From a virus, in IMG/VR virus record IMGVR_UViG_3300020192_000008, positions 43,273 to 107,272 of that record: a DNA stretch of 64,000 nt. One strand, written 5' to 3'. Positions within the stretch are counted from its first letter, which is position 1, and the number at the start of each line of letters is the position of its first letter. Made by a program: the position numbers and the translations under genes. Below are positions 822 to 53,595 of this stretch, piece after piece. The notes beneath the pieces were generated by a model. It was given only the letters and a program-made list of their open reading frames with translations. It had not been told where the DNA came from and did not search any database.

Positions 822-2471
822 TTACAGAAGGCCCCCGTAGATGTCAGCGCCCAACTCGTCCCAGAAAGCGTCCCGCAGATAGTGGACCGTGAGGGGAGTG
901 AAGAGCTGATCAACTGGTGCCGACGCCAGCTTACTGAACTCACTACCCCTTGGGGCAGATGCGTTCAGAAGTCCTTGTGCGCCGCTCACCAGATCCATGA
1001 GAGTTGTTCGGTACCCGTTGTAGGCAGCTCCTATCTTACGCAGCACTTCTGAGGGATGGGAAGAAGAGGCCCTCTTCTCACCCCCGTCGCTCTTCTTCAT
1101 CACAAGTACACGATGCTCAATCGCAGGCGCGAGAGCAGAGCGTGATTCCATGAGAGGGAGAAGAAGTCTTGCAAGTGAAGGAAGGAAGGAAGCGTGGCCG
1201 AGAGACATACTCTCAGTATCTTTCGATCTGGGGAAGACGATGTTCCGACGATCAAAGTCGTCAGCCATGTCTCTCCGTCCGATCTGAATCAAGACGATAC
1301 GCTGAAACTCCCTGGGACGAAGAACGATGCCCAAACCACCAGAAGTAGACAGGGAGCTGGGCAGGTCATGTTTCCCGAGTGCATCAAGCACATCATCAGG
1401 CAAATCTTCTTCTTCTCTCGACAGAGTGGCCACCGCCTTGCCAGCGAACTGGCTCGGCACAATGTCCTTGATGATCTCACTCTTCTTGAGCTTCGCGTCC
1501 TTGTATTGGAACGCTTCCTTGAAGATTGACTCGTTGAGAGAAGCCGTCTTTTCCCCAACGGTCATCTCGTCGTAGCCGAGCTTCTCCGCCTCATAGGCAG
1601 AAGAGCCGAACGAATAGACGCGCCCCTCAGACGCGATCTTCATCATCGTCTTGGCTGTCTTGTCAGCCCCGATGAAGACGAAAGAGATGTCGAAGAACTT
1701 CGGGAAGTCGTTGTAGACGTACACCTTCCGGCCATCGGCCAGAATCTTGTTCATCTGATTGCGAGCGTGCTCGCAATAGTCCTTCCGAGTGATCGACACG
1801 CCCCGGATAGGGGTCTTCTTATGGATGGCGAGGATGGCCTGGCCCGGAGACGCGTGCTTCTTCGGGTCGAAGGTGGCAGCCGCCTCGTGGTACCGCTTCC
1901 AATCGAGGCAGATGGAGCACGTATCGAAGGGCACCTTGCAGCCCATCGAGACATCCGGAAACATGCCCTGGCTGAGCTTGTCCCAGACCTGCGTGCCCCC
2001 GTACTCCTGGCACTTGAGCTTATCGACCCGAGTAACGAGCTCGACGCGCTTGAGCCTCGGGTGCCAGACAGCCAGCTCCACCTCACCGAAGGCGCGGCCT
2101 GCGTCCTTGTTGCGATGGTGGGCGTAGGGGTGGGCTGAATAGAAGGTCGGGTAGCCGTACGCCCAATCCTTCGCCTTGATCTTGTCGAGCAAAGGGTTGC
2201 CCGTCCAATCATCAGGGCGATGGATCAGGGCAGCTTCTGGGAAGTGATCGCCGTTGACATTGGAGCCGAAGAACTCTCCGGCCCCCATGGCATTGACGAG
2301 GTTGTACGCTGCATCATTCCGGGGCCTGAGCGACTCGATATACTTGACGACGTCAGGAAGAAGTGTGGCTGATGCGGTCTTCTCGAAGTACGCATCAGAC
2401 GCTTTGTTGAAGAGCGGGATGACCGTTGGGCCAGTCTCGCTCTCACCCCAGTATGTGCAGAGCTTGTACAT
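822..2471 (-). CDS. Prohead (capsid maturation) protease, HK97/assemblin-like fold with Zn-binding insert
   Basis: HHRNKD (candidate catalytic His), DVSMGC (candidate catalytic Ser), CSIC...YCEH, FFDISFVFIGAD; lies among head genes. Confidence 0.7.
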   Translation of the reverse strand: MYKLCTYWGESETGPTVIPLFNKASDAYFEKTASATLLPDVVKYIESLRPRNDAAYNLVNAMGAGEFFGSNVNGDHFPEAALIHRPDDWTGNPLLDKIKAKDWAYGYPTFYSAHPYAHHRNKDAGRAFGEVELAVWHPRLKRVELVTRVDKLKCQEYGGTQVWDKLSQGMFPDVSMGCKVPFDTCSICLDWKRYHEAAATFDPKKHASPGQAILAIHKKTPIRGVSITRKDYCEHARNQMNKILADGRKVYVYNDFPKFFDISFVFIGADKTAKTMMKIASEGRVYSFGSSAYEAEKLGYDEMTVGEKTASLNESIFKEAFQYKDAKLKKSEIIKDIVPSQFAGKAVATLSREEEDLPDDVLDALGKHDLPSSLSTSGGLGIVLRPREFQRIVLIQIGRRDMADDFDRRNIVFPRSKDTESMSLGHASFLPSLARLLLPLMESRSALAPAIEHRVLVMKKSDGGEKRASSSHPSEVLRKIGAAYNGYRTTLMDLVSGAQGLLNASAPRGSEFSKLASAPVDQLFTPLTVHYLRDAFWDELGADIYGGLL

Positions 2472-3010
2472 AAGGGGCCCTGACCGCCCTTGTTGTTGCG
2501 GCGCTGGTAGGGCTTGGCGACGACCTTGGGCTTGAGCGACTCGGCGAACGAGTTACCTGCGTGCTCACCACCCCTACGCCACGAATCAGCCATGGGGGAC
2601 TTGAACTTGTCGGAGGCCGACAGGCTCTCGGTGAGGATGCCACCGGCTGACATGGGGTTGTCGGCCATGCGGCGCAGATAGGTCCCGGCGACGATCGGGT
2701 CCTTGGCGAAGTTCGGATTCATGTTCCGAAGCGACGAGTACATCTGGTTGAACATCTTCGGGTCGCGCTCGTGATGCTCATGCAGGTCCGGGTTCAGTTC
2801 CAAGATCTGCTTGAAGTCGTGCGACTTGGTGGCCGCATCGTAGATCTTGCCAGCGGCCATGCCGGCGCCGGCGAAGGCAACTCCGGCAGCAGCCATCCCA
2901 AGACCCTGCGTCATCGCATGGCCGAAGCCCTTGGCAGCTTCACCACCGAAGGCGACCTTCTCCTGGGGCTCGCCGTACTGGGCGTAGAAGTCATCGAGGG
3001 GGTTAGACAT
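2471..3010 (-). CDS. Virion/head-associated protein (179 aa if TTA is stop)
   Basis: EKVAF motif and Gly/Ala hydrophobic segment. In-frame TTA 2473-2471 overlaps the protease ATG (TTATG). The standard code would extend it to 2225, about 245 nt into the protease gene. Confidence 0.65.
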
Positions 3011-4206: not shown

Positions 4207-4242
4207 TCACTGCTCCTTCAAGAATCCGTTACAAGAAGTACC

Positions 4243-4938
4243 ATGGATAAAAAACTCATGGGAAGCTGGCCCCGGCTGGTCTCCGTGCTGGAAGCAGCCG
4301 AGATGCTTTCGGTTTCTGTCGATCAAGTCCATCGCTGGAACCGGGATGGTCTACTAGAGGCTGAGTACCCAGAGGGAAGAAGAGGGGGGAAGTACTTCCA
4401 GACGGAAGACATCCAGACCCTCATAGAAGCTCGGGCCAGCAAGACGCTCTCTGACCATGATGTGAAGATTCTAGCCCTTCAGTCTCTGGTCTCCTCCAAG
4501 AGGGCAGAACGAAAACTCGATGAGCTGCTTGGGATGCTCGGTGTTTCGGACGTGAAGCTCGGTACCTCGAGGGAGGAGGTCTTGGCTTTCTTCGTCGAGG
4601 TAGAGGACGAGATCAAGGAGGGTGAGCCGCTCCTACCCGAGGAGGCGATCGGCTGGGCCAAGCGGATGCTGGGCATCACCGAGGAGTACCTGGAGCTAGT
4701 GAAGGAGCACACGTTCATGCTCGAGCCCTGGGTCCCGTACATGCAGCTCTCCAAGAAGCTGCACGACAAGTTCCCAGCAGGGCAGGCAGGGGCCTACCTC
4801 TCTCACGCCATCCGTAATCTTCGGCACACGGCGTACTTCTACGTGCGTCGGGCGGATGGGGTGAGAGAGGCGACGAAGCGCTTTCCCGAGGGTGGCGTGA
4901 CGAGCCAGCTCCTCGGGATCATGTTTCCGAAGAGCTAA
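4243..4938 (+). CDS. Helix-turn-helix DNA-binding protein (MerR/excisionase-like N-terminus)
   Basis: LVSVLEAAEMLSVSVDQVHRWNRDGLL...GGKYFQTEDI. Confidence 0.7.
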   Translation: MDKKLMGSWPRLVSVLEAAEMLSVSVDQVHRWNRDGLLEAEYPEGRRGGKYFQTEDIQTLIEARASKTLSDHDVKILALQSLVSSKRAERKLDELLGMLGVSDVKLGTSREEVLAFFVEVEDEIKEGEPLLPEEAIGWAKRMLGITEEYLELVKEHTFMLEPWVPYMQLSKKLHDKFPAGQAGAYLSHAIRNLRHTAYFYVRRADGVREATKRFPEGGVTSQLLGIMFPKS

Positions 4939-7836
4939 CCCTTGGTTCGTTGGCCCCGAGTAACCGCCGAGGTTGGGGCCACCGCTCCGAGCGTTCTCTT
5001 TCTTCGGGGTGATGATGTCCGGCCTGGGGTGGATGATCATCGAGCCAACGAAGCAGTAGATGATAGAGTGCAACGCATCATCAGGCCGATCGGGCCTGTG
5101 CTGGTACTGGATCATGTGAAGAGACTGGTTGTACTCTGTGAAGATGTTCAGGATGTCTTGCCCGAACGGCTCACGGAACTCTTCCCACCTGGGGAACATG
5201 ATCTGCTTGCGCTTGATGGCCGTGAAGACATCGCTCACGACTTCCGTCTTGTGCACCTTCCAACGCTGCAGCTTACCGTCCCACTCGACCTTCTTCTTGT
5301 TACGGGCCATGTACTGGAAGCGGTGCACGCGCTGGGTGCCGAAGCGACGGATCAAGTAGGCGTTGTTGTTGAAGCCACCGCCGTAGTCGCACCCGATGAT
5401 GCGGACGTTGTACGCATGCAGGATGCGCTTGATCTTCTCGAGCTGGATCTCAGGGTCCGTGTCTTCACCCGTGAAGCGGTGGATGAAGAAGATCTTGAAC
5501 TTCATCCCGTCGTAGTAGCCGAGACTCATGACCGTGTAGCTGTTCTCGCCCGTGTTACCTTGGTACGCGATGCTTCCGTTACGCTCTGTGACGATGTACC
5601 CCGAAGGCACGGCGCAGCAGTACACCTTGCCCGCATAGGGGACGTGCTTCACCGCCGTGGAGGGGGTGTTGAACTGGTAGTCTCGGCCCTCCGACCACAA
5701 GGCTCTCCAGCGCGTCTTCCGGTTCCCCTCCGCAGGCTTGTGCAGCTTCACGGAGCACCGAAGACCGAGCTTTATGCAGATCTCCTGGAAGTCCTCGCAC
5801 AGCCCTTTTGACGTCGAATAGAAGGCCCCTCCTGTGCAGCCCTCCCGAGGGTCCGTGTAACCGTCTCCGTCTACCAGGGCCTGAAACAAGATCCGAAGCT
5901 GCCTTTGGCCGAGGCCGAGGAACTCCCGTGGGATACGCTTCTCGTCCCCTTCGACCCCTACGTTCTGGGCGTACCACGCCCAGTACTGCTTGCCGTAAAT
6001 GGTCCAGTTGACGTCCCCAGTCTTTGGGTTCGGGAACGCCTTGAACGAGACCCCCACCCGGTCGAGAGACGCCTGCATCTTGAGGTAGGTCTCGTGGTTG
6101 ACCGTCTCCCTCTGCGACATCTTGAGGCAGGACGGGCGGCCCCCATCAAAGCAGACCCCGCCCTCTGTCACGAGATAGCCGAGTAGCTCCAACCAGTCGT
6201 CCATGGGGACGGTCTTGTCCTCAGAGCCCTTGTACCCAGGGCTCGTCGGCAGCCCCGGCAGCGTGAAGGCCTGCTTCTCCTCTCCTTGCCAGTCGACGTA
6301 GCCCACGAACTTGACGTTGCCGCCCCGTTCTACGAGTTCGCCCGCCGACTCGGTGAGCCACCGCTCTCCCTGGGAAGTCCCGACACGCATGCGGTGCGTA
6401 TGGGTGATCATCAGATCGAGCCCCCCCTTGGTCTCGAAGTGTAGAAGTGGCTGGTCCCAGTCGCGTACCGTACGAACCTTCGGAGCCACGAAGGTCATCG
6501 CACGCGTTTCTGGATCCCACTGGGCTACCTTGTCTTCGTCGGTGAGATCACAGAAGTACTTGAAGCCAGACTGCGTAAGAATGCGTGTCTTGTCATCGTG
6601 ACAGCCCCAGTCGATGCCAGCGAAGATGTTGCCGGCGGTAGCCGTCTTGCGGATCTTCTCGAGGGCCGTGGGGTGCATCGTCAGCTTGGGGTCGCATGAC
6701 TCCTTCAGCTGGCCCATGGTGATGGGCCGGAGGCCTGAGTCGTAAGACATCCCCAAGACTTCGTTGTAGAACTTGTCGCGGGGGTACCGCTCGTAGTCGA
6801 GCAGGATTTCCTCCCACGACCGCCAAGGCACCATCAGCTGGGGGATGCGGTAGCTCTCGAAGACCCCGTCACGGACCTGGTTGATCCACTTCGAGTCCTT
6901 GTGCATGGGGTCGATCTTCCCCCCGCACTTCTCGCAGATGAGGCTCTTCTTACCGATGTTCTTCTCGCAGAGGATGTTCCAGTGCCGGCCAGCACCGCCA
7001 CCAACGGAGGACCCGCAGTGGTCGCACGGCACCATCCACTCACCCTGCGTCGACATCGGGCGGCCCTTGGCCACGCCTGACCGGTAGAACTCGATGGGGT
7101 TGTCGAGCCCTTTGGGTGTGCCGGCGTAGATGAAGCGCTTGAACTTCTCCGGAGCGTGGCTTGTGCACTGCTCGATGACGGGGATGTTGTCGGCGAGAAT
7201 GTCTTGGAGCTCGTCGAGGGTGAGCAGCCAGGCTGGGATGCCTCGGGTACGGTCGGCGTTGAGGAACGCATACCTCAAGGTGATCTTCGCCCGGTTGACG
7301 AACTGCTTCTCGAAGATGTTCTGCGACAGCATGGTCGTCGTGAACGTCTTCAAGACCTGGCTCGTCTCGATGGGCTCCTTGATACGGTCGACCGAGAAGA
7401 CCTTCGTCTGCGTGGCTGACGGGCTCACGTACAGCGTCTTGTACGCCGGCACGACGCACGAGTACGAGAGCATGATGTTGCCGATCATGGTCGACTTCTC
7501 GACCTGCCGGCCACAGAACAGGAGCACGCGCCTGGCTGGGGTGTTGTAGGGGCGGCGCATGTGCCGACGCCCCTCAAACGTGAAGTTCTCGTACCCCATA
7601 CCGTCCTGCCGAGGCATCCGGAAGGCGAACTCGGTGAACTGGCTGGGCAGGACAGCGGGGATCTTGACCGCTGCCCTGCGCTTCTCCTCTATCTCCCAGA
7701 AGTCCTCGAAGGGCTCTGGCTCAGGGAGCCAGGGCTTGCCGTTGTGCATCCTTCGGAGTTCTTCGTCTGTGAACTCTTCAGGCTCGAGGTCCTCTTCAGA
7801 AGGGACCGTGACGGGGTCAGGCTGGAAGCTGCTCAC
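4936..7836 (-). CDS. terL: Terminase large subunit with LAGLIDADG intein
   Basis: GRQVEKST (Walker A-like), LTLDE (Walker B), AGTP, GIDWG nuclease motif, PDDALHS. Ends at in-frame TTA 4938-4936; the standard code runs to 4696, 243 nt into the convergent gene. Confidence 0.88.
5554..6603 (-). mobile_element. Intein (350 aa) with LAGLIDADG homing endonuclease in terminase
   Basis: GIDWG|CHDDKTRILT...THTHRM...ERNGSIAYQGN|TGE; LAGLIDADG-like LLGYLVTEGG and FQALVDGDG; penultimate residue Gly, +1 residue Thr. Confidence 0.9.
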
Positions 7837-8255
7837 AGGCTCTTGATCTTCGCTTCGATGGCTTCGTCGAGCTTCTCGAGGAACTTGTCAGCGTAAGCAT
7901 CGAGGTCGAGGATGTGCCCGAAGCCATCAGCCTGAAACCACCAAGAGTCGACTTCTTGCGTGTAGGCCGCACGCAGCCGTGGGTAGGCTGCGTTGAAGAA
8001 CTCCATGGACGCATCCGAGAGCACCTCGGGGAAGAGGTACCTCCAGTAGTACCCCACCCTCGCGCCCAGATGCTGGATGTCTTTCACCTGGTAGAAGTGG
8101 AAGATAAGGCTTCCCTCGTGGATGCAGACTTCTCCGATGAAGGTCGTGTAGTCCTCGACCTTACGGAAGGTCTTCGCCCTCACCCCCTGCTCCTCCTCCA
8201 TCGAGAGGCGACCCTTCGCTTCCGTCTCCGTCATCTGCTCCGGCTGGTAGTTCAT
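7833..8255 (-). CDS. Hypothetical protein
   Basis: 140-aa ORF coupled to terL by GTGA overlap; true start may be a downstream ATG. Confidence 0.65.
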   Translation of the reverse strand: MNYQPEQMTETEAKGRLSMEEEQGVRAKTFRKVEDYTTFIGEVCIHEGSLIFHFYQVKDIQHLGARVGYYWRYLFPEVLSDASMEFFNAAYPRLRAAYTQEVDSWWFQADGFGHILDLDAYADKFLEKLDEAIEAKIKSL

Positions 8256-9171: not shown

Positions 9172-9178
9172 CTAAGGC

Positions 9179-11356
9179 TAACGCCTGCTGGAACGCCAGC
9201 GTCTTGAGACCCTCGATGACATCCTCGAGGTACTTCACGCACTTCTCGAGAGGGCCCTGGGGGATTTTCGAGAGCCCGAGCCTCGACGACATCAGCAGCT
9301 CACAGAGCTTCGCCTGCGTGCTGTTGATCTCCGGCAGGTAGGAGACGAACGTGTGGATGTTCTCGGGGTTCACGAAGCCGATGGAGAGGATCGTGTCGAC
9401 CGAGGTGGGGTCGGGGATGAAGGCCGCCTCCTTGAAGAGGTTGCGCTTGAGGTCGAAGGCGGGGCTCGAAGCGAGCTTCTCCTGGGACTTCCTGCGCGAG
9501 GCCATCTTCACCGACTCGGCAGGCTGGATGTGCCGGCCCACCCGGACGTCGACCGGCATGCCATGGGCAATCGCCTGGGCAAGCTTCGTCTGGGCGTAGC
9601 CGAGGTCTGTACCCAGGCCACCCAACAGGAAGAGCGAGTCGTCGAACGACAGGAAGTGCTTCTCGTCAGACGCCAGCTTGTCGATGGGGAAGCCCTCGAA
9701 CGAGAAGCTGTTGACGCCCCCCGCCCTCACGGTCACCGAAGCAAGCTTCCGCTGGGCGTGCGCCACCTTGTTCCCGCCCTCAGGGGCGCTCACCAGGACA
9801 ACGCTTTCGGCCTTGCCCATGCCCATCCACTTGTAGTCCTTGGGCAGGAGGAACGTACCCTCATCAGCCTGGGTGGGCTTCTGGATGTTGGGCTGCAGAG
9901 AGACTGTGCACTCGCGACCATCGTAGGTCTCGACGTGCAGCTTCTGCTCCCCGTCCGTGACCTTCCCCTTGATGGTCATGGGGATGGTCGCCTCTGTCTC
10001 GTCACCACTCTGACGAACGAACACGCCGGTGCCCGTGGGGGAACCGAACATGAGCTCGCCGTTGGTGCTCTGCAGGCTACCGGCGATCTCCGGCTGCACA
10101 GCCGCCGCCGACCCGTTCGTGAACAGGGCGATGGGCAGAACTGTGCCGTCGAGGTCAGTCAGGTTGGGGAATACGAGCCCCATCATCTCGGTGCCCTCCT
10201 CGTTCTGCACCTTGTACGTGCCGAACTCGGTGATGGGCTTGAGGTCTGCCAGCGGGGCGCCTTCACCCACGGCATCGTCAGTGACGGTGACCGAGCCATG
10301 CTCATCGGCATCCTGGGCGAGCTTCACCCCGAAGTGCTTGATGATGTCGCCTCGGCTGACGGAGTGAGCCTCCTTGACCTGCCAGTACTTGTGGTTCGCC
10401 TCCTTGACCCGGTAGCCCACGTTCTCCTTCGAGACCTGGATGACCGAGGGGCGGATGGCGCTCTCCATCGAGGAAGCCACCTTCTCGCTGGTCACCTGGT
10501 TGGTGTTCCAGATCTTGTTGATGGAGGGGAGGGTGGCGTGGGCGTTCTTCACGTACGCCTGTTGAACCCCAACGTCCTTCATCTCGTGGGCGAAGGAAGT
10601 AAGGTCGGAGCTCAGTGCTGTCGGAAGGATGGCCTCGAGCAGAGAGGCTGACTTCTCCACACCAGTCAGGTCATGACCCGAGGTCTTGAGGTCAGACTCG
10701 TTCGGGTCCTTCTTGAAGCCCTTGAGCTTCTTGGCATCGACACCAAGCACCTTCGACAGGCGCTCTGCGAACTGCGCCTTGTTCTTGTCTTCGGCCGTCT
10801 TGGTCTCAACGTGCAGCTGCTCACGCAGGTAGTACTCGAGATCTGAGCTGGTCTTGCCCATCATCCCGCCGGCGCCACCCATGCCGCTGCCATCCCGGTG
10901 GGGCGGGTAGATCTGACTGGCCATCGACGTGTCACCTGGCGTCTTGCTGGTGACATCGAAGGTCTGTGGGCGGAAGAGGGCTTCCTTCAGACGCCGCTCG
11001 GTGAGGGGAAGAACCTTCGAGTCACCAGTAACGATGAGGTCGAGGGGCTGAAGCTTCTTGTCCTTGACCACCACCGGGATGCGAACCGACTTCACGCCCA
11101 CGGCGTCCTTGGCCTGGTCGCTTGCGCCTTGCTGCAGCTCGGTCTTGTTGGAGATCTCAATGTGGCCGAATGCAAAGCCACGCTCACCATCGATTCGATC
11201 CATCACCGTGTGAGGCTCGAAGTCCGAGATGAAGGGGATCTGCTTGTACGCTTCCTGCAAGATCTCCTGCGACCACTGGTTCGGGTCTTCAGGAAGAACA
11301 GTCTCAGCGGCCGTCTTCTGGATCGGCAGGATGGAGTCGAGGTAGAGGTTCGTCAT
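9179..11356 (-). CDS. Large head-associated protein rich in K-x-A-S motifs (725 aa if TTA is stop)
   Basis: QKTAA, EKSAS, EKVAS, RKLAS, DKLAS, VKMAS, EKLAS. Ends TTA GCC TTA just before the next GTG at 9171; the standard code overlaps that gene by about 500 nt. Confidence 0.7.
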
Positions 11357-12023: not shown

Positions 12024-13220
12024 TCAAACGAGGCACGATGCTTCGCCCGTGAGGATCATCCCGAAGAGAACAAGGGGAGGACTTCCAGGAACGGGTACTG
12101 GCGTAAAGGGGAAAGTGAGTTGCACCAATGCCCCCTGAGCAGCCACGGGCTTGGAGCCCTTGCCCAGGCGAACAATGCTTCCCTTGACGTGGGCCAGAGC
12201 TCCGCCATCGAGAACCATACCGTTCTTGGCCTTCATCAAGATCTGATTCTCGCTCTCGAGAGTCAGGTCTTCTTTGCTCTTGATGTAGATCTTCTTCTTC
12301 GAGGTGAGAGCCACGTTGCCCTGCGCCCTGAGGAAGACGCCACCAGCCTTGTCGAAGAAGAACCTCATGACAACCTTGTCACGGGTCTTGTTGTCGATGG
12401 GGTCCCCTGTGTCTGCGTTGAATCCCTTGGGGGCTATCACGCACTCAACCACGATCTGCTCCTTACCGATGCTGAGCAAGTCGAGCAGGCCCTGCTCACC
12501 ACCATCACCCGATGGCTCGATGATGGGGTCATGAATCTTGCCCACCTTCACCCGAACATCTGCCTCTTCATCATTGGCCAGGATGCGAAAGGTGTGGGTG
12601 TACTCGCTGGGTAGGTCCTGGTAAGCCGGGCCTTCTTGGATGCCCCAAAGAACAGACCCACCGTGGTTGTGGTGGGCATAGTTCTTCGTCATCTGCATCA
12701 ACGTATCGGTGAGCGGGATGTAGATGCTCTGGCAGATCTCCGAGCAGCCGATCTGCAATACACCGCCCCGATGAAGGATAACGAAGTTGCCATCCCTCGT
12801 ACGGAACCAGATGTCACCCGGCTTGGCCTTGGGCCTACCCCCTGAGAAAGTCGCGCTAGTCGAGCTCTTGTTCGGCTGGTTGTTCGACTGCGTTCCCTTG
12901 GGCGCGTCCGGAGCTGCCTGGTCGTTGTACTCAACCGGCATGATGAACGAGCTCACGTAAGGGGGTGAGCTGTCGGAGGGGACGGTGACCATGCACTTGG
13001 CACCAACCTCGGGGAAGACGTAAGCGCCCTCCCCGTTGTTGTAGTGCAAGTACATGCTGCCTACTTGGATGCCAGCAAACCTATGCCGGTCGAACTGGCT
13101 GATGACATCCACCGTCCAGTTCGCCAGGTTGACGCCGACGATCTTCCCTTGAAGAACGTACGACTCAACGTTCCCCTCCATGAAGGTGAACGAGGTGCGG
13201 AAGCGTTGGATGCCTTGCAT
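12024..13220 (-). CDS. Baseplate central spike (gpV/gp5-like)
   Basis: N-terminal OB-like region (GKIVGVN...FPEVGAKCMV) and C-terminal short beta-strand repeats. Confidence 0.55.
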   Translation of the reverse strand: MQGIQRFRTSFTFMEGNVESYVLQGKIVGVNLANWTVDVISQFDRHRFAGIQVGSMYLHYNNGEGAYVFPEVGAKCMVTVPSDSSPPYVSSFIMPVEYNDQAAPDAPKGTQSNNQPNKSSTSATFSGGRPKAKPGDIWFRTRDGNFVILHRGGVLQIGCSEICQSIYIPLTDTLMQMTKNYAHHNHGGSVLWGIQEGPAYQDLPSEYTHTFRILANDEEADVRVKVGKIHDPIIEPSGDGGEQGLLDLLSIGKEQIVVECVIAPKGFNADTGDPIDNKTRDKVVMRFFFDKAGGVFLRAQGNVALTSKKKIYIKSKEDLTLESENQILMKAKNGMVLDGGALAHVKGSIVRLGKGSKPVAAQGALVQLTFPFTPVPVPGSPPLVLFGMILTGEASCLV

Positions 13221-25860: not shown

Positions 25861-25861
25861 G

Positions 25862-32944: not shown

Positions 32945-33350
32945 AGAAGTCCCGCACGAAGTGAAAGAGTTCCTTGAGGCTCAGGACCGCATCATCCGCT
33001 ACCGGGAGGCTCACCCCGATGTCTTCGAGACGTACGAGGAGCTTGCCTCCACGTACAACGACAAGCTCGAGGCAGCTGACAAGGTCGTCCGGGGCGGGGC
33101 GCTGAGCGTGGGGCCCTTCGAGAAGTACCAGGTCCAGAACAGCTACGACGCCGACAAGCTGTTCGAGGAAGTGGGTATGGAGAAGTTCCTGGCCATGGGT
33201 GGCACCATCAAGACGAAGGCTGTCTACGAGGTGGACCCCAACCGCCTCAAGGCCGCCATTGCTCAGGGCACTGTGCCAGCTGACGTGGTGAAGAAGGTGC
33301 ACAAGGAGACACCGAAGTACCACAAGCCACAGAAGCTGGTGGTCAGGTGA
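32928..33350 (+). CDS. Hypothetical protein
   Basis: MKTKTEEVP..., 140 aa, GTGA-coupled to the next gene. Confidence 0.65.
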   Translation: MKTKTEEVPHEVKEFLEAQDRIIRYREAHPDVFETYEELASTYNDKLEAADKVVRGGALSVGPFEKYQVQNSYDADKLFEEVGMEKFLAMGGTIKTKAVYEVDPNRLKAAIAQGTVPADVVKKVHKETPKYHKPQKLVVR

Positions 33351-33670
33351 GGACGGCGAAGTTCAACGCGCTCTCCGTCAAGGAGCTTTCTGCCAACTTC
33401 ATCAGCTCTGACCCAGCGCTTGAGGGCAAAGCAGCCTTCGTCAGCACGCTGACGCAGAAGACGCATGGTCAGACCATTGGCAAGGTCTGGAGCAAGGACA
33501 CCCTCGACTTGCTCACCCAGCTCAAGGCCTCGATGGAAGCAGACCTCGAGACGGTTCACTTCGCTGACGGGCCGACCAGTTCTTCCATCAACCAGCAACC
33601 TCGTCAGATCGACGAGGCTTTTGAGGGTGGGGGCATAGGCGAACACATCGGTGGTGAACGTCAAGTGTTA
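33347..33670 (+). CDS. Hypothetical protein
   Basis: In-frame TTA at 33668-33670, shortly before the standard TGA at 33680-33682. Confidence 0.6.
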
Positions 33671-33775: not shown

Positions 33776-35158
33776 ATGGCTAGCAGCGAGCACCAGCTCA
33801 TTTCCCTGATCATGAAGACAGGGGATTTGAAGACAGTACTCGAGTGGGGGATCACCGAAGACGATCTCCTGATGAACGACACGAACTCGGCGTTCAAGAT
33901 CTTGATGTCGGTGTACACGAGCCCCGATTCAAGGGGCGCTGTACTTGGGCCGTCATCAGCACTTGAGAGGTACCTGCCCGCGTGGCAGTTCGAGGTTGAT
34001 GCGGGCATGACGCTCAACTTCCTTTGCAGCGAGGTGCGCAAGCGCAGGCTGTCGAAGGAGCTGAAACTCAAGGCACAGGCCTGCATCGAGTACGCAGACC
34101 TCAACCCTGAGGAGGCATTCAACCAGTTGAACGAGGCAGTGACCCTCTACCGCAACATCGATGCCGGCAAGTCAACAGACGTTGACCTGGCAACGGGCAT
34201 GAAGAAGGTCATCGCGAAGTACAACAAGGCCAAGAACGGGCAGAGCATCGGCCGGTTCATGTGGCCTTGGAAGCCTCTGCAAGAGGCTACTGGTGGTGTG
34301 GCTGACGATGAGTTCGCCGTCTTCTACGGCAGGCCCAAGAGCATGAAGTCTTGGATCTTGATGTACCTCATCACCTTCGCCTTCGAGATGAACCAGAAGG
34401 TTCTCTTCTACACCAAGGAGATGACCGACGAGCAGTGCTACCAGCGGATGGCCGCCATCATGGTCGGCGCTCTCTACCAGGACCTGCGCCTGGGCAAGCT
34501 GCCTGCCTTCCAGGAAGAGCAGCTGCACGTCATCCAGCAGGTGGCCGAGGAGATGGCCTCGAAGAACAGGATGATCTGCCTCACGGCCAAGGACGTCGCT
34601 GGCAGGGACACCCCCAGCTGGCTGCGAGGCAAGATCGAGAAGTACCACCCCGACGTTGTCTTCGTCGACGGTCTGTACCTGATGAGCCCCGAGGCTCGCC
34701 GTAAGACGATGCAAGACCACGAGCGTGTTCGGGAGATCTCCCGTGACGTTCGACGCATCGTTCTCGAAGAGAAGGTCCCGCTGATGGCCACCATGCAGGC
34801 CAACCGGCAGGCAGCGAAGCACTCTGAAGGCAACCTTGATGAGATCGCCTTCTCTGACTCGCTCTCGCAAGACTGCACCATGGCTTGCCGGGTGATGTCC
34901 GACAAGCACCAGCCCACCATCAGCCTCGTGATGGCCGGCTCTCGTGAGTGGACGCTCGACGGGTTCCGGGTGCACGGCATCCCAGCGAGCAACTTCAGCT
35001 TCCACTCGGTTCTGACCAGCAAGGAGATCGAACAGGTCAGGAAGAACGACGAAGAGGAGGACGAGCCGAAGGACAAGAAGCCCGTACGTCAGCCCCGCAC
35101 GTTGGGGGCAGAGAAGCCTGCTCCCAACTACAAGAAGACGCTCGAGAACATGCCGTTA
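33776..35158 (+). CDS. dnaB: DnaB-like replicative helicase (460 aa if TTA is stop)
   Basis: GRPKSMKS (Walker A), VFVDGLYLM, QANR, SDSLSQD. TTA 35156-35158 overlaps the primase ATG; standard stop is at 35266. Confidence 0.85.
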
Positions 35159-36126
35159 TGGACAGGCACTCGGAGGTACTTGCTATCGCACAGAAGTACC
35201 TTCACAAGGTCAAGAAGAGCGGGCCAGACAACGTCATGGCGTTCTGCCCCTTCCACGACAACGTGAACACCCCGGCGTTCACGATGTCGTTGACCAAGGG
35301 CATCTGGTTCTGTTTCTCATGCCACGCCAAGGGAACACTCAAGATGTTCCTCAAGGCGATGGGCATAGGCGAGGGTCTTGTTCAGACGCACTACGGCTCG
35401 CTCATCGACGCCCTACGCAAGAACGTAGACCCGGCCTTTGATCCCAACAAGCCTGGGGTCATCTGCCAAGAGCCTCTCGACGAAGCCATCCTCGGGTTCT
35501 TTCACGAGTGCCCGATGGATCTAATCAACGAGGGCTTCACCGAGGAAACCCTGCTCCACTTTGGGGTGGGGTTCGACAAGAAGCACAACCGCATCACGTA
35601 CCCCATCCGAGACTTCACGGGGAACCTGGTCGGCATCAGCGGGCGCACTGTTACAGGTGCCTACCCGAAGTACAAGGTCTACGACCTGGAGTACAAGGAC
35701 TTCGGTCTGGGCGTCTACCACACCGACAAGTCTCGGTACCTCTGGAACTCGAGCGAGGTCTACCCTCAAGTCTACTTCTCAAGGGGCGAGAAGGTCGTGC
35801 TCGTTGAGGGCTTCAAGGCCTGCATGTGGGCCTGGCAAGCGGGTATAAAGAATGTGCTAGCCCTTCTAGGCTCATCAATGTCAGCCCAACAGAAGTGGGT
35901 GCTTGAGCGTCTAGGCGCACCGGTGTACCTCTGGCTAGACAACGACGACGCCGGCCGTAATGGCACGAAGAAGATTGGCGATGATCTGTCCAAGTCCTTG
36001 GACGTGTTTGTCATCGGCTACGAAGAAGCGCAACCGAGTGATCTCGCCCTTGAAGATGTCCAGAGTAAAGTCGCCTCCGCGACGGACTATCACCTGTGGG
36101 CAGTAAGAAAGTACCTGAAAGGTTTA
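35158..36126 (+). CDS. dnaG: DNA primase (CHC2 zinc finger + Toprim)
   Basis: CPFHD...CFSC, GISGR, VEGF, LDNDDAG. Ends GGT TTA TGA, with TTATG overlap to the next gene. Confidence 0.9.
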
Positions 36127-37283
36127 TGAACATGGGCTCCTACGGCAAGACTGATATGAAGAACGCCCCGACCACCTTCCGCCAGTCGGTGGCCAGCCAG
36201 CAGAAACAGAAGCCCGAGAAGACTGGTGCTGGCGGGGGGAACGTCCCCTACTTCGTCAACCAGTTCAAACCCTCGACGGAAGAGCCAGACGTGGTGCGCC
36301 TCCTCAAGGGGGAGTACCCGGTCCAGCTGGCTGGGCAGAACGGTGAGCTGGTCGAGCAGACGCTCGCCTACTACATCTACCGCGAGCACTTCGATGGCCG
36401 TACCAACAAGAGCGCCATCTGCTCAGCGGGACCGTTCGCGATGGACCGCAAGAAGCGCCAGCCCTGCGATGGCTGCGACATCTACTGGGAGGAGCGGTCT
36501 GCGGGCAAGAAGCAGAACAACCGCATGTCCAACCGGGAGATGTACGTCTTCTCGATGCTTCATCACGCCAACTACGTGAAGACCGAGCAGCTCGACCGCA
36601 ACACCGGCGCCGTGAAGGTGAACGATGACGGCCAGCCGTACATGAACTGGGTACGGATGATGGCCCACGAGCGTGGGAAGTTCGCTGGCAAGGAGATGAA
36701 GGACGCCAACGCCCTTCACTGGGCCATGGGCTTCAACCACTTCAACGTCATCCGCGAGTACGACAAGCAGATCGGCAAGTCGTGCAGGGCGTGTGGTGTG
36801 AAGGCTGGGCGCAAGGGCGCTCACGAGGTCGGGGTCAAGAGCGAGGCGTGGTGTTGCCAGGGCTGCGGGGAGGCGCTCATCGAGGTCGACTCAACGGAGC
36901 TGGCGCCCAAGCAGATCGACGAGATCACGTCTGACGTGGTCGAGTGCGCTGTGTGCAAGCGTGTCGGCTACCTGCAGGAGATGGTGTCCTGCACCGAGTG
37001 CTCGGATGGAACGCGCTCGGAGATCTTCGACGTGGACCTGGAGGTTCAGCGGGTGAAGCCTGCTGATGGTGGCAACCAGACGGTGCTGGCCATTGTGGGC
37101 TGGGCGAACCCGCACCCCATCGACCCTCGGCATGTGGAGATTGCCAGGCCGCTGGAGCTGCCGAAGATCTACGCGCCTACCCCGCTCGAGCGTCAGCACG
37201 AGCTCTTCGGTAGCTCGGGGAGGCAGCCGGTCACCGCTGGCAGCAAGCCCTACGGCGGGCCTCCGACTCTCGGCGGCAAGTTA
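36126..37283 (+). CDS. Putative single-stranded DNA-binding protein with Zn ribbons
   Basis: Between primase and polymerase; EHF...C...CDGC plus several CxxC motifs. TTA 37281-37283 lies just before a terminator. Confidence 0.55.
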
Positions 37284-44008: not shown

Positions 44009-44348
44009 GGAACTGCTCGGGGCCTGCAACCACACCGAGCTGCACCAGATCTGCAGGCGTATGGACATCCATGTCAGACCGACCGCAAGCCGGGAAGACA
44101 TGATCGACTACATCTGCGGGAATGATGAACCCCCTCCGCCATGGCACGGCATCAATGCCTGGCGACATGCCCTCATGGGCTTCGTTCTCGACAACTGGGA
44201 ACTCATACGTTCTCAGATCTCCTGCCCGGCTAAGTCTGGTGACCCGCGTGCCTGCTTCGGTTGTACCGATACGCAGGTGATGTTCTGTGTTGTCGACAAT
44301 CACGACAACGAGTCTCTCATCCAGCTGCACAAGAAGGATCAACCATGA
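43983..44348 (+). CDS. Hypothetical protein with HeH-like N-terminus and Cys cluster
   Basis: NHTELHQICRRMDI...SREDMIDYI; CP...CFGC...C. Confidence 0.6.
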   Translation: MSSSIRSFEELLGACNHTELHQICRRMDIHVRPTASREDMIDYICGNDEPPPPWHGINAWRHALMGFVLDNWELIRSQISCPAKSGDPRACFGCTDTQVMFCVVDNHDNESLIQLHKKDQP

Positions 44349-45052
44349 ACGCTCCCGCAACCACGATGCCCAGCCCCGAGACCGCTCCCCGCACGCCCGA
44401 GGAGCTGACGAAGATGACCGTCTTCCTCCAGCGCAGGCTGGCCGAGCAGCTCAACTCGTCGGGCTTCCCGGTCTGGACGAGCGAGCCGGAGAAGACGGCC
44501 TTCATCACCGAGACCAGCGAGAAGCGCGGGATGATCTTGGCCGAGAAGCTGGCCGCCTTCGACAAGGCCCGTGGCGGTGCTCCCGCCGCTGCAGCTCCGG
44601 TGGCTACGGTGACCCCCATCACCCCGCCGACGGAGGCAACGCCGGCGCCCGCCACGGCCAGCAAGCGTCAGCCCAAGACGCAGGCGGCTGCACCTCCTCC
44701 GGCAGCTGCCCCCGCTGTCAGCGGTGAGCAGGGGGTGCTCTCGTCCGAGGTCGTCAACCTGCTCAAGACGGTCTCGACCGACCTGAAGAACCTGCACGGG
44801 ATGACCGATGCGAGGATCGAAGGGGTGGAGAACCGTCTCGATGGCGGCAAACTCGTCACCAAGGGCGACCTCGTGGAGCTCAAGGACATGCTCACGGCGT
44901 CGATGCGCGTGCAGCAGGCCACGCTCGGGGTGCTCTGCCTGTTCGGGCAGGAGGTGCTCAAGGCCTCCACCCGTGACGTGATGGGTCCGGCGATCGAGGA
45001 GGCGAACAACGCCCTCGACGCTCTGGAGGAACTGGGCAAGGGAAAAGCATTA
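44345..45052 (+). CDS. Hypothetical protein with Ala/Pro linker; -1 frameshift isoform would extend to 45237
   Basis: AAGGA SD; ends AAG GGA AAA GCA TTA; standard-code stop would be at 45208. Confidence 0.65.
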
Positions 45053-45081
45053 GCCAGACGCGGCCCTGGCCGGGCTGCGTC
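45025..45081 (+). promoter_or_regulatory. Programmed -1 ribosomal frameshift signal
   Basis: GGAGG at 45025-45029, slippery G GGA AAA at 45040-45046, 10-bp stem GACGCGGCCC/GGGCTGCGTC at 45057-45081. Confidence 0.7.
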
Positions 45082-46815: not shown

Positions 46816-46820
46816 ACTGA

Positions 46821-46878: not shown

Positions 46879-46884
46879 TGCTTA

Positions 46885-47187: not shown

Positions 47188-47194
47188 TGTACTT

Positions 47195-49911: not shown

Positions 49912-49921
49912 GGCGTGTTCT

Positions 49922-50275: not shown

Positions 50276-50324
50276 TCGAGCACCAGGGGAATGTGAGATG
50301 GCTTGGGGAAGTGGGAGATCCCCT

Positions 50325-50486
50325 TCACAATCTCTTCAACGTATTGAAGAGACATCTTGGACATGCGCTTGCGGATGCGCTCTGCCGTTCTTGAGCTGAT
50401 ACCACCAAGTGGTCTCTCATCCTCTTGAGGAGAGCCTGCTCATAGTCGTAGAGCCGTCCTTGCCAGGGCTTGAGCTTCTTGGTCAT
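50325..50486 (-). CDS. Small hypothetical protein (53 aa)
   Basis: ATG 1 nt after the upstream gene's TTA; MTKKLKPWQGRLYDYEQALLKRM... Confidence 0.3.
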   Translation of the reverse strand: MTKKLKPWQGRLYDYEQALLKRMRDHLVVSAQERQSASASACPRCLFNTLKRL

Positions 50487-50487
50487 G

Positions 50488-50841
50488 TAAGAAGGAGTTC
50501 ACATCAGGGAAGCTGGGGTTGATCTTCGTGCCCGCGAATGAGTACTTCAAACCTTCTTCGATGACCCAGATGCTCAGGTCACCCAGCGCCTTGCGGATCT
50601 TGTAGAGACTCGACTTGCTCACCCCGTTGTTAGGTCCGTGATACCCCCGGGCCATCTCGAGGGTGATGGGCTGAATCTTGTACCGGTAGGTGAACTCGTA
50701 ATAGGGACTGCCGCCAAGCTTCTTGATGGCCTCCCAGAGCTTCTCGTACGTCTCCTTGTCTTCGGCGCTGAGCCGGTACTTCTGCGAAGGCTTCACCTTC
50801 TTGGTGCCTTCGTAGAACCTGCGCAGTCTTCGGAGGCTCAT
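50488..50841 (-). CDS. Hypothetical protein
   Basis: In-frame TTA at 50490-50488; standard stop at 50440. Confidence 0.5.
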
Positions 50842-51047
50842 GGCATGGCTTTCCGAGCGTGAGGTTTGATGCGAGCTACTAGCTCAGCCCCCACTGTTGT
50901 ACCGCTTTCTATCGAAGACCTGCGGGCCTCTGCAACGAGCTGTTCTACCTGCTGCAGACACCACTGGTAGGCGGGCTTTTCATACGCCCCGTCCTCGGCG
51001 ATGGTCCGCTGTACGTGCCGTGCGTAAGCACGAAACTCGTGGGCCAT
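50838..51047 (-). CDS. Small hypothetical protein
   Basis: MAHEFRAYARH...; ATGA coupling to the next gene. Confidence 0.5.
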   Translation of the reverse strand: MAHEFRAYARHVQRTIAEDGAYEKPAYQWCLQQVEQLVAEARRSSIESGTTVGAELVARIKPHARKAMP

Positions 51048-51594
51048 TGTGCTTCGCGTAGTAGATGACGTCCTTCCAGTCGCCGGTACGGAAGTAGTCC
51101 GTCTCGGCGTTGTACGGCTGCGCCCAGACGATGCCGAGGCCATCAGGATGGTGGTCCATCCACTCGATGATGTGGCTCTCCTTGTCGTCAACGAGGATGT
51201 CCCCCTTGCAGACGTACTTGGCGTGGGTCTGGATGACCTTGTTCTGGCGGAAGCCGAAGTGCTTGTAGAGCCACTCGCCCCGCTCGTACGCCCAGTGCCG
51301 GCTGCTGTGAGGGGCCGTGACCACGTAGACGTCAGCCACCTCAAGCAGCTTGGGGATGCCCTCGAGTGCGGCCTGGTAGGGCTCGATGCCAAGGACCACA
51401 CCAGGCGTCTCGTGGATGTAGCCCCAGAAGTCCTTCTCGATGAGGTCCCCGTGCTTGCTGAACAGGTCCCACATGTCGAGCTCCTCTTCCTTGAGCTCCT
51501 TGCCCGTCTTCTCGGAGATCCATCCAAGGGCAAGCTTGACGAAGTTCGCCAGCACACCATCACAGTCAACCAGCACGCGCTTACGTGGTCCCAT
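51025..51594 (-). CDS. 5'(3')-deoxyribonucleotidase (HAD family)
   Basis: VDCDGVLANF, VVTAP, ILVDDK, QPYN. In-frame TTA at 51027-51025; standard stop at 50980. Confidence 0.88.
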
Positions 51595-51682
51595 CTTCAA
51601 CTCCTTCTCCCAGCTTCTCTAGCTCGGCTTTCGCATCATCCATCTCTCGCTGAAACCACGGCTTGCTGTTTTCATCCGCCAT
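51581..51682 (-). CDS. Small protein (33 aa)
   Basis: AAGGAG SD; TTATG overlap with thyX; MADENSKPWFQREMDDAKAELEKL... Confidence 0.45.
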   Translation of the reverse strand: MADENSKPWFQREMDDAKAELEKLGEGVEDGTT

Positions 51683-53595
51683 AACGACTCCTTGATGAGT
51701 GCGAAGTTGTGTTCACCGGGGATGGTCTTGCGATGCTGGACCCACCCCTGGACATTGCCCAGGAAGTGCGTGCAACGATCGACGTCTATCCACGCCTTGT
51801 TGAGCTCATCCCACTCGTAGACGGGCTGGTAGAACATCTCGAGCTCCTTCTCCGTCATGGGCCTGCACGGGTGCTCGAGGGGGCTCATGTGCCCAGGCTT
51901 CACGAGCCTGTCGTAGAGCTCGAGGTCCTTGGAGATGTCGCGCTTGCCATCGTGGGCGAGGGCAGAGACGCGGGCGCAGCGGGCTGCGGAGACCTTCACC
52001 AGCTCAAGCCGTACCTCAGTCGTCGTGTCGCTCCAGGAGTAGTAGCTTGCGTCGCCACCGTCGACGTACGGCAGGTGCCACTCACCGTGCTTGAGCTGCT
52101 TGGGCTCGCTCTTGTCGTAGACATCCTTCATCATCCCCGCGACCATCTGCATCTCGGGTTGAGCGTTGGGGTCGCAACGCAGGGCGAAGAAGTTGTCCCA
52201 CTCGGTCGCGGTACAGATCACAGTCTGCCAGCCCCACGGCTCGAGCAGGCGGTTGGCATGCTGCTTGTGTACAGCGAGGTTGAACAGGCCCTGAGCTGCA
52301 CGGACGCACGCATCAAGCGCATCCGTCCAGTGCTTGGACGCTTCGTGGTTGGAGAGCTCGCTCATGACCTCGGTTGCCTGCATCCCCTTCTGGTTCTTGG
52401 TGAAGGCGATGGGTACGAAGGGGTTGGCCTTGACGCGCTCGATGTTCTTCTCGACGGGGATGGCCCTCGAGGAAGCTGAGTTACGGCTGTTGTGCACGAC
52501 GACCCCATTCGCGAGGAAGTTGGGGTACTTCCCCACGATCTCGAGGTCGTAGGTTGGCTCTTGGCCCCGCGAGACGATCTCGTCGATCCGTGCGAGAGAC
52601 CCGTACAGATACGTGCCGCCCTGCCAGCCCTGCTTCTCGTGCATCGCGCAGTGGCAGTCGTCGCACAAGAGCGTGACGTTAGTCTCTTCCAGAGCCAGAG
52701 AAGGATCCTGATGCACCGGAACGACGTGGTGGATCTGGTTGCCTTTCTCGGCGCAACAGCGACGACACATGGCGTCCATCGACCGCATCCTGTCGCGCAT
52801 CTGGCGCTGCCACACCGAACGCCACTTGCCATCGATCTTCTTCAGACGCAGCGGGTCAGTTCTGTCGTCGTCCTTCTTGCCGAACTTCCTGACGACGAGA
52901 AGGTCGCCCTTCTGTAGGTCTTCGATGCGGCGCCACCCCTCTGCCGTGAGTACGCGGTGGTCCCTACTACCGGCGATGCGGAAGTCGCCCGCCCTCACCT
53001 CGAACACCTCCTTGGTGCCTGACGGGTGGGCAGTCACGACGTGCGACGTTTGGATGTCCCCGGTGTCCTCGTTGAGTTGACGGATGGCCATGCCCGCGAG
53101 CTTCGCGCGCATGTCGAAGCGTGTGTGCTCCGGTTTGCTACTACGCCACACGATCAGGTCTCGACCGAAGATGATCCAAGTCCTCCCGTTGGTGCTGAAT
53201 CGTTCGGCCTTGATGTACCCGTCACGGCACAGCTTGTTGATGTTGCTTGGGTTGGCCATCCCAAAGCGAGAGGCAGCTTCCTGCGCGGTGTAGCGCTCAT
53301 CGGGGTTGATCCACGAAGTATCGTAGTTCGTCTTGGGGTTGGCTCCGACGCGGTCGGCGCCGTTCGACCACTTGTCGACGAACTCGGCGATCGTCATGCG
53401 GTACACTCGGCGGTGCTCCCCCTTCCTGCTCCCTGCGGGCGAGTCGAACTCCAGCATCGAATCCCCTGCGAGGCAGAAGACCCGGTGTGTGTTGTACTCA
53501 GCCAGGATGAACCTGGGGAACGTGCACTCGATGGTGGTGATGCGGTGCCCTGAGGGGCTGATGCTGTCGGCGATGATCTTGGCTGCGTAGTTCAT
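51682..53595 (-). CDS. thyX: Flavin-dependent thymidylate synthase with intein
   Basis: After splicing the signature reads THRVF|SRNSASSRAIP; HKQHANRLLEP, NAQPEM, SAARCARVS, HMSPLEH. TTA at 51684-51682. Confidence 0.9.
52489..53475 (-). mobile_element. Intein (329 aa) with HNH endonuclease and an HTH insert
   Basis: F|CLAGDS...GSRDHRVLT...TYDLEI...NFLANGVVVHN|S; CRRC...HHVVP...NVTLLCDDCH. Confidence 0.9.

What the first reader, a model, noticed from the sequence alone, without database searches (positions are those of the whole stretch)
2471..51684. TTA (UUA) appears to be a stop codon: candidate non-standard genetic code
Seen: I checked TTA/TAA trinucleotides by eye in the called genes and found no in-frame TTA inside any gene body, including the 2126-aa RNAP, the 1308-aa baseplate protein, PolA, NrdJ and the portal. 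Out-of-frame TTA and the other Leu codons (TTG, CTA) do occur. In-frame TTA sits at the apparent natural end of 11 genes: 2471(-), 4936(-, terL), 9179 plus 9173(-), 33668(+), 35156(+, dnaB), 36124(+, dnaG), 37281(+), 45050(+), 50488(-), 51025(-), 51682(-, thyX). Four are TTATG stop/start overlaps, the same geometry as the TGATG junctions at 3010, 13220, 27710, 39752 and 58558. Reading TTA as stop removes overlaps of about 245, 243, 500 and 110 nt whose translations look like junk tails. TAA, TAG and TGA remain stops. Established: UUA as stop is known from Thraustochytrium mitochondria (NCBI table 23). Known phage recodings go stop-to-sense (TAG to Gln, TGA to Trp/Gly); I know of no sense-to-stop case in bacteria or phages. 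Inference: UUA is a fourth terminator codon here.
Basis: partly seen in the sequence, partly recalled or inferred. Interest (0 to 1): 0.97.

Follow-up and report, generated by a model that had tools for sequence, protein, structure and literature searches.

The report
Leucine codon TTA ends phage genes
In this uncultured large phage the leucine codon TTA is never used inside genes and instead sits exactly where related phages have ordinary stop codons, so it most likely acts as a fourth stop signal, a change of the genetic code that I found published only for some mitochondria and plastids.

Summary
The window is 60% of a 107-kb IMG/VR phage contig (60% GC). On the whole contig, 18 of 113 genes end in TTA.

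Where relatives can be aligned to the codon, TTA lies on their stop codon. This holds for TerL (TAG), the 725-aa virion-module protein (TAG, TGA, TAA) and DnaB (TGATG in a relative, TTATG here). Coding signal collapses after each TTA.

Two other members of this ~185-kb phage family show the same pattern. One is a complete 177-kb genome at 46% GC: 59 of 206 genes end in TTA, and none of 6,179 conserved codons is TTA. The three are not sister lineages. Ordinary relatives use TTA for Leu.

This argues against assembly error and against chance.

There is no direct translation evidence, and raw reads could not be checked.

Earlier notes of this scan report the same thing in other windows of this genome and in unrelated phages. 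I found no paper describing it in phages or bacteria.

The parts
2471..2473 (-). TTA ending a 179-aa gene (2471..3010).
   Evidence: Coding score drops from 0.65 to -0.60 after the TTA. In L001 and L007 the homologue ends with TAG or TGA 6 nt before the homologue of the downstream gene starts. G001 has TTATG at the same junction.
4936..4938 (-). TTA ending the intein-containing large terminase (966 aa, 4936..7836). The same triplet is the TAA stop of the convergent HTH/excisionase-like gene 4243..4938 (+).
   Evidence: L001 and L007 have GGC TAG where the window has GGG TTA. G001 also has TTA at the aligned codon. In L001 the two convergent genes share CTAG.
9173..9181 (-). TTA GCC TTA: double TTA ending a 725-aa protein of the virion/packaging gene block (9179..11356). 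The next gene starts at GTG 9171.
   Evidence: L001 ends with TAG and L002 with TGA at the aligned codon (offset 0 in 4 of 5 relatives). The 166-codon standard-code tail overlaps the conserved next gene out of frame.
33668..33670 (+). TTA ending a 107-aa gene (33347..33670).
   Evidence: Stops of 26 relatives scatter within -8 to +5 codons of the TTA. A standard stop lies 4 codons later, so this site is weakly diagnostic.
35156..35158 (+). TTA ending DnaB-like helicase (460 aa); TTATG overlap with the DnaG primase start.
   Evidence: L006 has CTT TGA TGG ACA where the window has CCG TTA TGG ACA. The primase zinc ribbon starts 3 residues after this ATG. G001 and G002 also end DnaB with TTA.
36124..36126 (+). 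TTA ending DnaG primase. It is followed directly by TGA and overlaps the ATG of the next gene (TTATGA).
   Evidence: This site is not diagnostic on its own, because a standard stop follows immediately.
37281..37283 (+). TTA ending a 385-395-aa gene downstream of the primase (function unknown).
   Evidence: A standard stop lies 7 codons later, and the C-termini of relatives vary in length.
45050..45052 (+). TTA ending a 263-aa gene (44261..45052), before a convergent gene on the minus strand.
   Evidence: Coding score drops from 0.69 to -0.56. The standard-code tail would be 52 codons. No informative relative was found.
50488..50490 (-). TTA ending a 117-aa gene (50488..50841).
   Evidence: Coding score drops from 0.69 to -0.72, and another frame becomes coding just after. 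No relative was found.
51025..51027 (-). TTA ending the NT5C-type 5' nucleotidase (191 aa).
   Evidence: The Pfam NT5C match ends at residue 178 and the TTA is residue 192. Coding score drops from 0.69 to -0.70.
51682..51684 (-). TTA ending the intein-containing ThyX (671 aa); TTATG overlap with a 33-aa ORF that precedes the nucleotidase gene.
   Evidence: The one relative found has TGA 2 codons from the aligned position.

Best explanation
UUA is a translation termination signal for this phage, a fourth stop beside UAA, UAG and UGA. About one gene in six ends with it, across replication, nucleotide-metabolism and virion/packaging genes.

Shown here:
- TTA is absent from gene bodies.
- TTA occupies the stop position of homologues.
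- It is used in stop-start overlaps (TTATG) and as a shared stop triplet of convergent genes (TTA/TAA).
- The same signature occurs in two other genomes of the family.

Inferred, not shown: the chain is released at UUA by a class-I release factor with relaxed reading of the second codon base. That factor most likely belongs to the host, as with the RF2 variants linked to UUA = stop in organelles. The host would also lack a tRNA-Leu with anticodon UAA. The phages would then have adapted to a host code by purging sense TTA and letting stops drift to TTA.
For: 1. Position. 16 of 18 coding-context TTAs in the contig are terminal, against 18% for control codons (p = 3e-10). The other two are explained.

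2. Homology.
- TerL: GGG TTA here against GGC TAG in L001 and L007.
- 725-aa protein: GCG TTA here against AGC TAG in L001 and TCA TGA in L002.
- DnaB-DnaG junction: TTATG here against TGATG in L006.

3. Tails. The tails after TTA score as non-coding or run out of frame through conserved genes.

4. Convergent pair. TerL and the HTH gene share CTAG in L001 and TTA/TAA here. That works only if TTA stops TerL.

5. Independent genomes.
- G001 is complete (177 kb, 46% GC). It has 0 TTA in 6,179 conserved codons, against CTA at 74 conserved Leu positions. 59 of 206 genes end in TTA. TTA is common out of frame (1,436 occurrences).
- G002 (53% GC) has 0 TTA in 3,861 conserved codons, and 6 of 21 genes end in TTA.
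- The control G004 (61% GC) has 1 TTA-ended gene in 189.

6. Standard relatives. In ordinary relatives TTA aligns with Leu of this phage (291 of about 590 cases), so the family's ancestral code is standard.

7. tRNAs. G001 carries tRNAs for many A-ending codons, plus Leu-CAA and Leu-UAG, but no Leu-UAA.

8. Backup stops. TTA-ended genes have no excess of nearby backup stops compared with genes that end in TAA or TGA.
Against: - There is no direct evidence of termination: no peptides, no ribosome profiling, no reads.
- No release factor domain was found in G000, G001 or G002 (RF-1 and PCRF families).
- The host is unknown. A pattern search for Ala or Gly at the Ser of the RF2 SPF motif found nothing in 401 genomes of the phylum of a Myxococcales MAG.
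- The contig is only 58% complete.
- At 60% GC, the absence of internal TTA is weak evidence by itself.
- For 33668, 37281, 45050, 50488 and 51025 the exact protein end cannot be fixed by homology.
- The three TTA-stop genomes are not one clade in a three-protein FastTree. This requires repeated gain, repeated loss or host-driven convergence.
Confidence: 0.8

Rival explanations
1. UUA is merely unassigned: no cognate tRNA and no release factor reads it. Ribosomes stall at it and are resolved by rescue systems (tmRNA, ArfA, ArfB) or by slipping into another frame that soon meets a standard stop. A parallel is the hungry AGA/AGG codons of human mitochondria, cited from my own knowledge.
For: - No release factor was found in the phages.
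- G001 has no tRNA-Leu-UAA.
- 5 of 13 window sites read TTAG, so a +1 slip would give TAG.
- Double TTAs occur at 9173/9179 and in G001.
Against: - 8 of 13 window sites have T or C after TTA, so a +1 slip gives no stop. A -1 slip at TTATG would fuse the protein to the next gene.
- In recoded E. coli, unassigned codons at gene ends lead to tmRNA tagging and degradation, and this blocks phage growth (PMC6207430). That fits poorly with 16-29% of genes, including TerL, DnaB and capsid-module genes, ending this way.
- G001 carries its own tRNAs for other rare codons, yet none for UUA. This suggests UUA is actively read as stop, not just unread.
Confidence: 0.1
2. A phage-encoded factor of an unrecognised kind enforces termination at UUA in a host with the standard code. 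It could be a protein or an RNA, and it might lie on the missing 42% of this genome. It might act together with destruction of host tRNA-Leu-UAA, which would also shut off host translation.
For: - Known phage recodings rely on phage-encoded tRNAs and release factors (my own knowledge).
- The trait is scattered on the family tree.
- Most genes have no known family.
Against: - The complete genome G001 has no RF-1 or PCRF domain and no UAA-anticodon RNA found by ARAGORN.
- TTA stops occur in genes of the replication block as well as in virion and packaging genes (gene identities). Expression timing was not measured; if the replication genes are early genes, the factor would have to act from the first moments of infection.
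Confidence: 0.06
3. TTA is ordinary Leu, or the TTAs are sequence errors. On this view the genes really carry long C-terminal tails, or they really end in TAA or TGA.
For: - Raw reads could not be inspected.
- TAA to TTA and TGA to TTA are single-base changes.
Against: - Three contigs from different samples show the pattern.
- Errors would not avoid gene bodies, nor hit only in-frame stop positions while 2,218 TGA and 211 TAA/TTA trinucleotides stay as they are.
- At 4936 the same base pairs serve as a correct TAA for the opposite gene.
- Tails of 80-166 codons run out of frame or antisense through conserved genes.
Confidence: 0.03

Closest known systems
UUA = stop in labyrinthulean (Thraustochytrium) mitochondria (NCBI table 23) and in peDinoflagellate plastids (PMC12574857)
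   Same: The same codon is changed from Leu to stop. [quoted passage not shown] It is used beside the standard stops, and a large share of genes end with it.
   Different: Those are organelles with a few dozen genes. PMC12574857 called the plastid case the first sense-to-stop change outside mitochondria.
UUA and UUG = stop in Marsupiomonadales and Pseudoscourfieldia mitochondria (PMC12574857)
   Same: A Leu-to-stop reassignment inferred from codon position and homologue ends.
   Different: Both UUR codons are affected there, and an altered mtRF1a is implicated. Here TTG stays a normal Leu codon (112 in 17,849 codons).
Stop-to-sense recoding in phages (TAG to Gln, TGA to Trp or Gly; my own knowledge)
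   Same: A phage genome whose genes cannot be called correctly with table 11.
   Different: The direction is opposite. Here TAA, TAG and TGA all remain stops, no suppressor tRNA lies in this contig, and TTA stops occur in the replication, nucleotide-metabolism and virion/packaging gene blocks alike. That such recodings are commonly enriched in late genes is my own knowledge, not tested here.
Rare UUA in Streptomyces (bldA) and UUA-triggered bypassing in the phage Hau3 terminase gene (PMC10732093)
   Same: UUA has a special role in phage genes, including a terminase gene, and depends on the lack of a charged cognate tRNA.
   Different: There UUA sits inside a split gene and is followed by a 7-10-nt gap that ribosomes skip to finish the protein. 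Here homologues end at the TTA and nothing downstream continues the protein.
Unassigned codons: recoded E. coli lacking RF1 (PMC6207430); Micrococcus luteus UUA and AGA (my own knowledge)
   Same: A codon with no cognate tRNA that disappears from genes. This is a possible intermediate stage. The sister contig L002/L018 has no in-frame TTA at all.
   Different: Unassigned codons stall ribosomes, and proteins that end in them are tagged and degraded. Here the codon ends up to 29% of genes.

Membership tests
Genetic code with UUA = stop (table 23-like) | UUA absent from conserved sense positions | tested here: met
   No genuine internal TTA was found in G000. The few TTAs inside HSPs are terminal sites or antisense artefacts. 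G001 has 0 in 6,179 conserved codons and G002 has 0 in 3,861.
Genetic code with UUA = stop (table 23-like) | UUA lies where homologues have a stop codon | tested here: met
   Exact at TerL, the 725-aa protein and DnaB, and consistent at the junction upstream of gene 822..2471. Five sites could not be fixed to the codon.
Genetic code with UUA = stop (table 23-like) | No tRNA with anticodon UAA in the translating system | tested here: inconclusive
   G000 has no tRNA genes in its 107 kb. The complete G001 has 10 tRNAs, none with anticodon UAA. The host tRNA set is unknown.
Genetic code with UUA = stop (table 23-like) | Release factor with an altered codon-reading region (RF2 Ser204 / SPF) | not testable with these tools
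   The phages encode no RF-1 or PCRF domain. The host is unidentified. A pattern search in 401 genomes of one phylum found no Ala or Gly variant, but it covered a sample only and used strict flanks.
Genetic code with UUA = stop (table 23-like) | Proteins end before the UUA (peptide or ribosome-profiling evidence) | not testable with these tools
No proteomic data are available.
Phage stop-to-sense recoding (TAG or TGA read as an amino acid) | In-frame standard stops inside conserved genes, with a suppressor tRNA | tested here: not met
   Long genes, including the 2126-aa RNA polymerase, are open under table 11. No tRNA lies in the contig.
UUA-triggered translational bypassing (Hau3 type) | UUA inside a split gene, followed by a short gap and a continuing frame that completes the protein | tested here: not met
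   Homologues of TerL, DnaB and the 725-aa protein end at the TTA. The downstream sequence belongs to other genes.

The most novel reading that the evidence does not exclude
UUA = stop is the code of a free-living bacterial lineage, the unknown host. That host would have a release factor able to read UUA and no tRNA-Leu-UAA. Several unrelated phage groups would have adapted to it, including this ~185-kb family and, according to unchecked notes of this scan, T4-like jumbo phages and a 435-kb megaphage. This would be the first sense-to-stop genetic code in a cellular, non-organellar genome.
Probability: 0.5. Interest if true: 0.97.

Novelty: new variant of a known kind. Interest (0 to 1): 0.9.

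Why it matters
- Every natural code change described so far in bacteria and phages turns a stop into a sense codon or swaps one amino acid for another. I found a sense codon turned into a stop published only for organelles (PMC12574857).
- If UUA ends translation here, standard gene callers mis-annotate about 16-29% of the genes of these phages. The errors are false tails, false overlaps and fused genes.
- Tools such as Codetta cannot see the change by design (PMC9825746).
- It implies a release factor in a bacterial system that reads a pyrimidine at the second codon position.
- It offers a natural test of the codon-capture route: the sister contig has no in-frame TTA at all.
- It suggests a code barrier between these phages or hosts and others.

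Tried and rejected
The other contigs that carry the identical primase (3 contigs) could not be fetched.
- GenBank phages hold nothing similar at DNA level and only distant DnaB relatives.
- The metagenome scan gave no close relative.
- Host search. MAG-binned family members carry the labels Deltaproteobacteria, Myxococcales and Anaerolineales. Their phage contigs are not of the TTA-stop type, and these MAGs have normal SPF RF2.
- A pattern search for Ala or Gly at the SPF serine found nothing in 401 genomes. Cys and looser flanks were not tried.
- A +1 slip from TTA-R to TAR is rejected as a general mechanism: only 5 of 13 window sites fit.
- Selection for backup stops was not seen.
- A test for TAG read as sense in G001 was spoiled by antisense ORF alignments and abandoned.
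- PHROGs gave no function for most TTA-ended genes.
Full report
WHAT THE WINDOW IS

The window is bases 43,273-107,272 of a single 107,272-bp IMG/VR virus contig (G000). The contig is linear, and CheckV puts it at 58% complete. It has 60% GC.

Its genes include:
- an intein-containing large terminase;
- a 2126-aa RNA polymerase;
- DnaB, DnaG and PolA;
- an intein-containing ThyX;
- an NT5C nucleotidase.

Relatives in IMG/VR are phages of about 177-198 kb, some with terminal repeats.

CHECK OF THE OBSERVATION

In 30 long ORFs (17,849 codons) TTA is never used. Codons of similar make-up are used: CTA 28, ATA 21, AGA 34, TTG 112.

I scored coding potential on both sides of every in-frame TTA in the whole contig. 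Of 18 TTAs with coding sequence upstream, 16 are followed by loss of coding signal or by the ORF end. For six control codons the figure is 119 of 659 (Fisher p = 3e-10).

The two exceptions lie outside the window and are not sense codons.
- At genome position 26317, TTA separates a scaffold-like gene from a decoration-like gene in the same frame. A start codon lies 12 codons downstream.
- At 8212, TTA lies upstream of the start of an acetyltransferase gene.

TTA is not avoided out of frame: there are 62 and 63 occurrences in the two other frames. With a four-stop table, 18 of 113 genes of the contig end in TTA, 11 of them in the window.

HOMOLOGUES

Relatives can be aligned up to the end of the protein in three cases, and in each the TTA falls on their stop codon.
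- TerL: the window has CAA GGG TTA; L001 and L007 have CAG GGC TAG.
- The 725-aa protein: the window has CAG GCG TTA GCC TTA; L001 has AAG AGC TAG and L002 has CGT TCA TGA. The next gene, conserved in all three, starts a few bases on.
- DnaB-DnaG junction: the window has CCG TTA TGG ACA; L006 has CTT TGA TGG ACA. That is TTATG in place of TGATG.

In the window it ends at the TTATG.

Under the standard code the 725-aa protein would gain 166 residues read out of frame through the conserved next gene. TerL would gain 80 residues read antisense through a real HTH gene. In L001 TerL and that convergent gene share CTAG, so each ends in TAG. In the window they share one triplet, TTA on one strand and TAA on the other.

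For five sites (33668, 37281, 45050, 50488, 51025) the C-termini vary too much, or relatives are too few, to fix the end to the codon.

OTHER GENOMES

From a primase alignment I fetched 80 loci of the family.

Most relatives use TTA as an ordinary, GC-dependent Leu codon. In their conserved genes TTA aligns with Leu of this phage in 291 of about 590 cases, then with Ile, Val and Phe.

Two relatives differ.
- G001 is a complete 177,132-bp genome with terminal repeats and 46% GC. It has no TTA in 6,179 conserved codons, although CTA, TTG and other A-ending codons are common. TTA is frequent out of frame (1,436 occurrences). 59 of its 206 genes end in TTA, including TerL, DnaB and the gene upstream of the homologue of window gene 822..2471, all at the same junctions as here.
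- G002 (27 kb, 53% GC) has no TTA in 3,861 conserved codons, and 6 of its 21 genes end in TTA.

A complete control of 61% GC (G004) has 1 TTA-ended gene in 189.

On a DnaB+DnaG+PolA FastTree the three TTA-stop genomes are not one clade. The nearest relative of G000 (the contig behind L002 and L018) has no in-frame TTA at all, neither sense nor terminal.

These results argue against assembly error and against chance.

MECHANISM

No RF-1 or PCRF domain is found in six-frame searches of G000, G001, G002 or G004. G000 has no tRNA genes.

G001 has ten tRNAs. They read AAA, GUA, AUG, ACA, AUA, AGA, UUG, CUA and UAC, and one has a CUA anticodon. None has anticodon UAA. A phage that imports tRNAs for rare A-ending codons, yet supplies Leu-CAA and never uses UUA as sense, suggests that UUA is actively read as stop and not merely left unread. 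This is an inference.

TTA stops occur in replication, nucleotide-metabolism and virion/packaging genes alike, so no gene class is spared. They have no excess of backup stops. In G001 they are followed by T in 30 of 59 cases.

The published organellar cases link UUA = stop to a substitution of Ser204 in an RF2-type factor (PMC12574857). By analogy, I think a host release factor with relaxed second-base reading, in a host without tRNA-Leu-UAA, is the most likely reader.

Stalling with rescue is less likely. Unassigned codons at gene ends cause tmRNA tagging and block phage growth in recoded E. coli (PMC6207430).

My attempt to find such a host failed. MAG-binned relatives carry Deltaproteobacteria, Myxococcales and Anaerolineales labels, but their phage contigs are ordinary and these MAGs have normal SPF RF2. 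A pattern search for Ala or Gly at the SPF serine found nothing in 401 genomes.

COMPARISON WITH WHAT IS KNOWN

Full-text searches found UUA or UUR as stop only in labyrinthulean and green-algal mitochondria and in peDinoflagellate plastids. They found no phage or bacterial case.

Codetta cannot detect sense-to-stop changes. The UUA-triggered bypass in the Streptomyces phage terminase gene is a different thing: there UUA sits inside a split gene.

Earlier, mostly unchecked notes of this scan report the same reading for other windows of this genome, for a 177-kb phage that is probably G001, and for unrelated T4-like jumbo phages and a megaphage. One note proposes a myxobacterial host group. I re-derived the G000 and G001 results independently. 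I could not confirm the host proposal.

VERDICT

That TTA marks the end of translation of these genes is well supported by position, homology and recurrence (confidence about 0.8). How release occurs is inferred only. Reads, peptides and the host remain to be examined.

Noticed in passing
G001 (record of L035), complement 135413-135485: The complete TTA-stop relative carries a 73-nt tRNA with anticodon CUA, an amber suppressor by ARAGORN. It lies apart from its nine-tRNA cluster at 123.4-126.3 kb. Whether TAG is read as sense in some of its genes is open.
   Followed up: partly
window 4936-7836 (-) and 51682-53697 (-): Both the large terminase (LAGLIDADG match, residues 648-719) and ThyX (intein splicing domain plus HNH, residues 289-488) carry intein-like inserts. 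Neither insert holds a TTA.
   Followed up: no
window 4936-4938; genome positions 7990-7992 and 21914-21916: Three convergent gene pairs end on one shared triplet, TAA on one strand and TTA on the other. In relative L001 the TerL/HTH pair shares the palindrome CTAG instead.
   Followed up: partly
window 51582-51682 (-): A 33-aa ORF starts at the TTATG that ends ThyX. It stops at a TAA just downstream of the nucleotidase start codon, so it overlaps the start of that gene.
   Followed up: no
window 45050-45061 (+) and genome position 2513 (-): The 12-mer TTAGCCAGACGC occurs at two TTA sites. At 45050 it is followed by GC-rich inverted-repeat-like sequence, possibly a repeated terminator.
   Followed up: no
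L002 9902-17938 against window 13220-19600 (-): The RNA polymerase ORF of the sister contig is 2,679 codons against 2,126 here, so it holds a large insertion of unknown kind.
   Followed up: no
genome positions 25573-27507 (-), outside the window: A scaffold-like protein with a long Pro/Gln/Ala-rich repeat region and a decoration-like protein lie in one frame, separated only by TTA and 11 codons. Standard gene calling fuses them into a 648-aa protein.
   Followed up: partly
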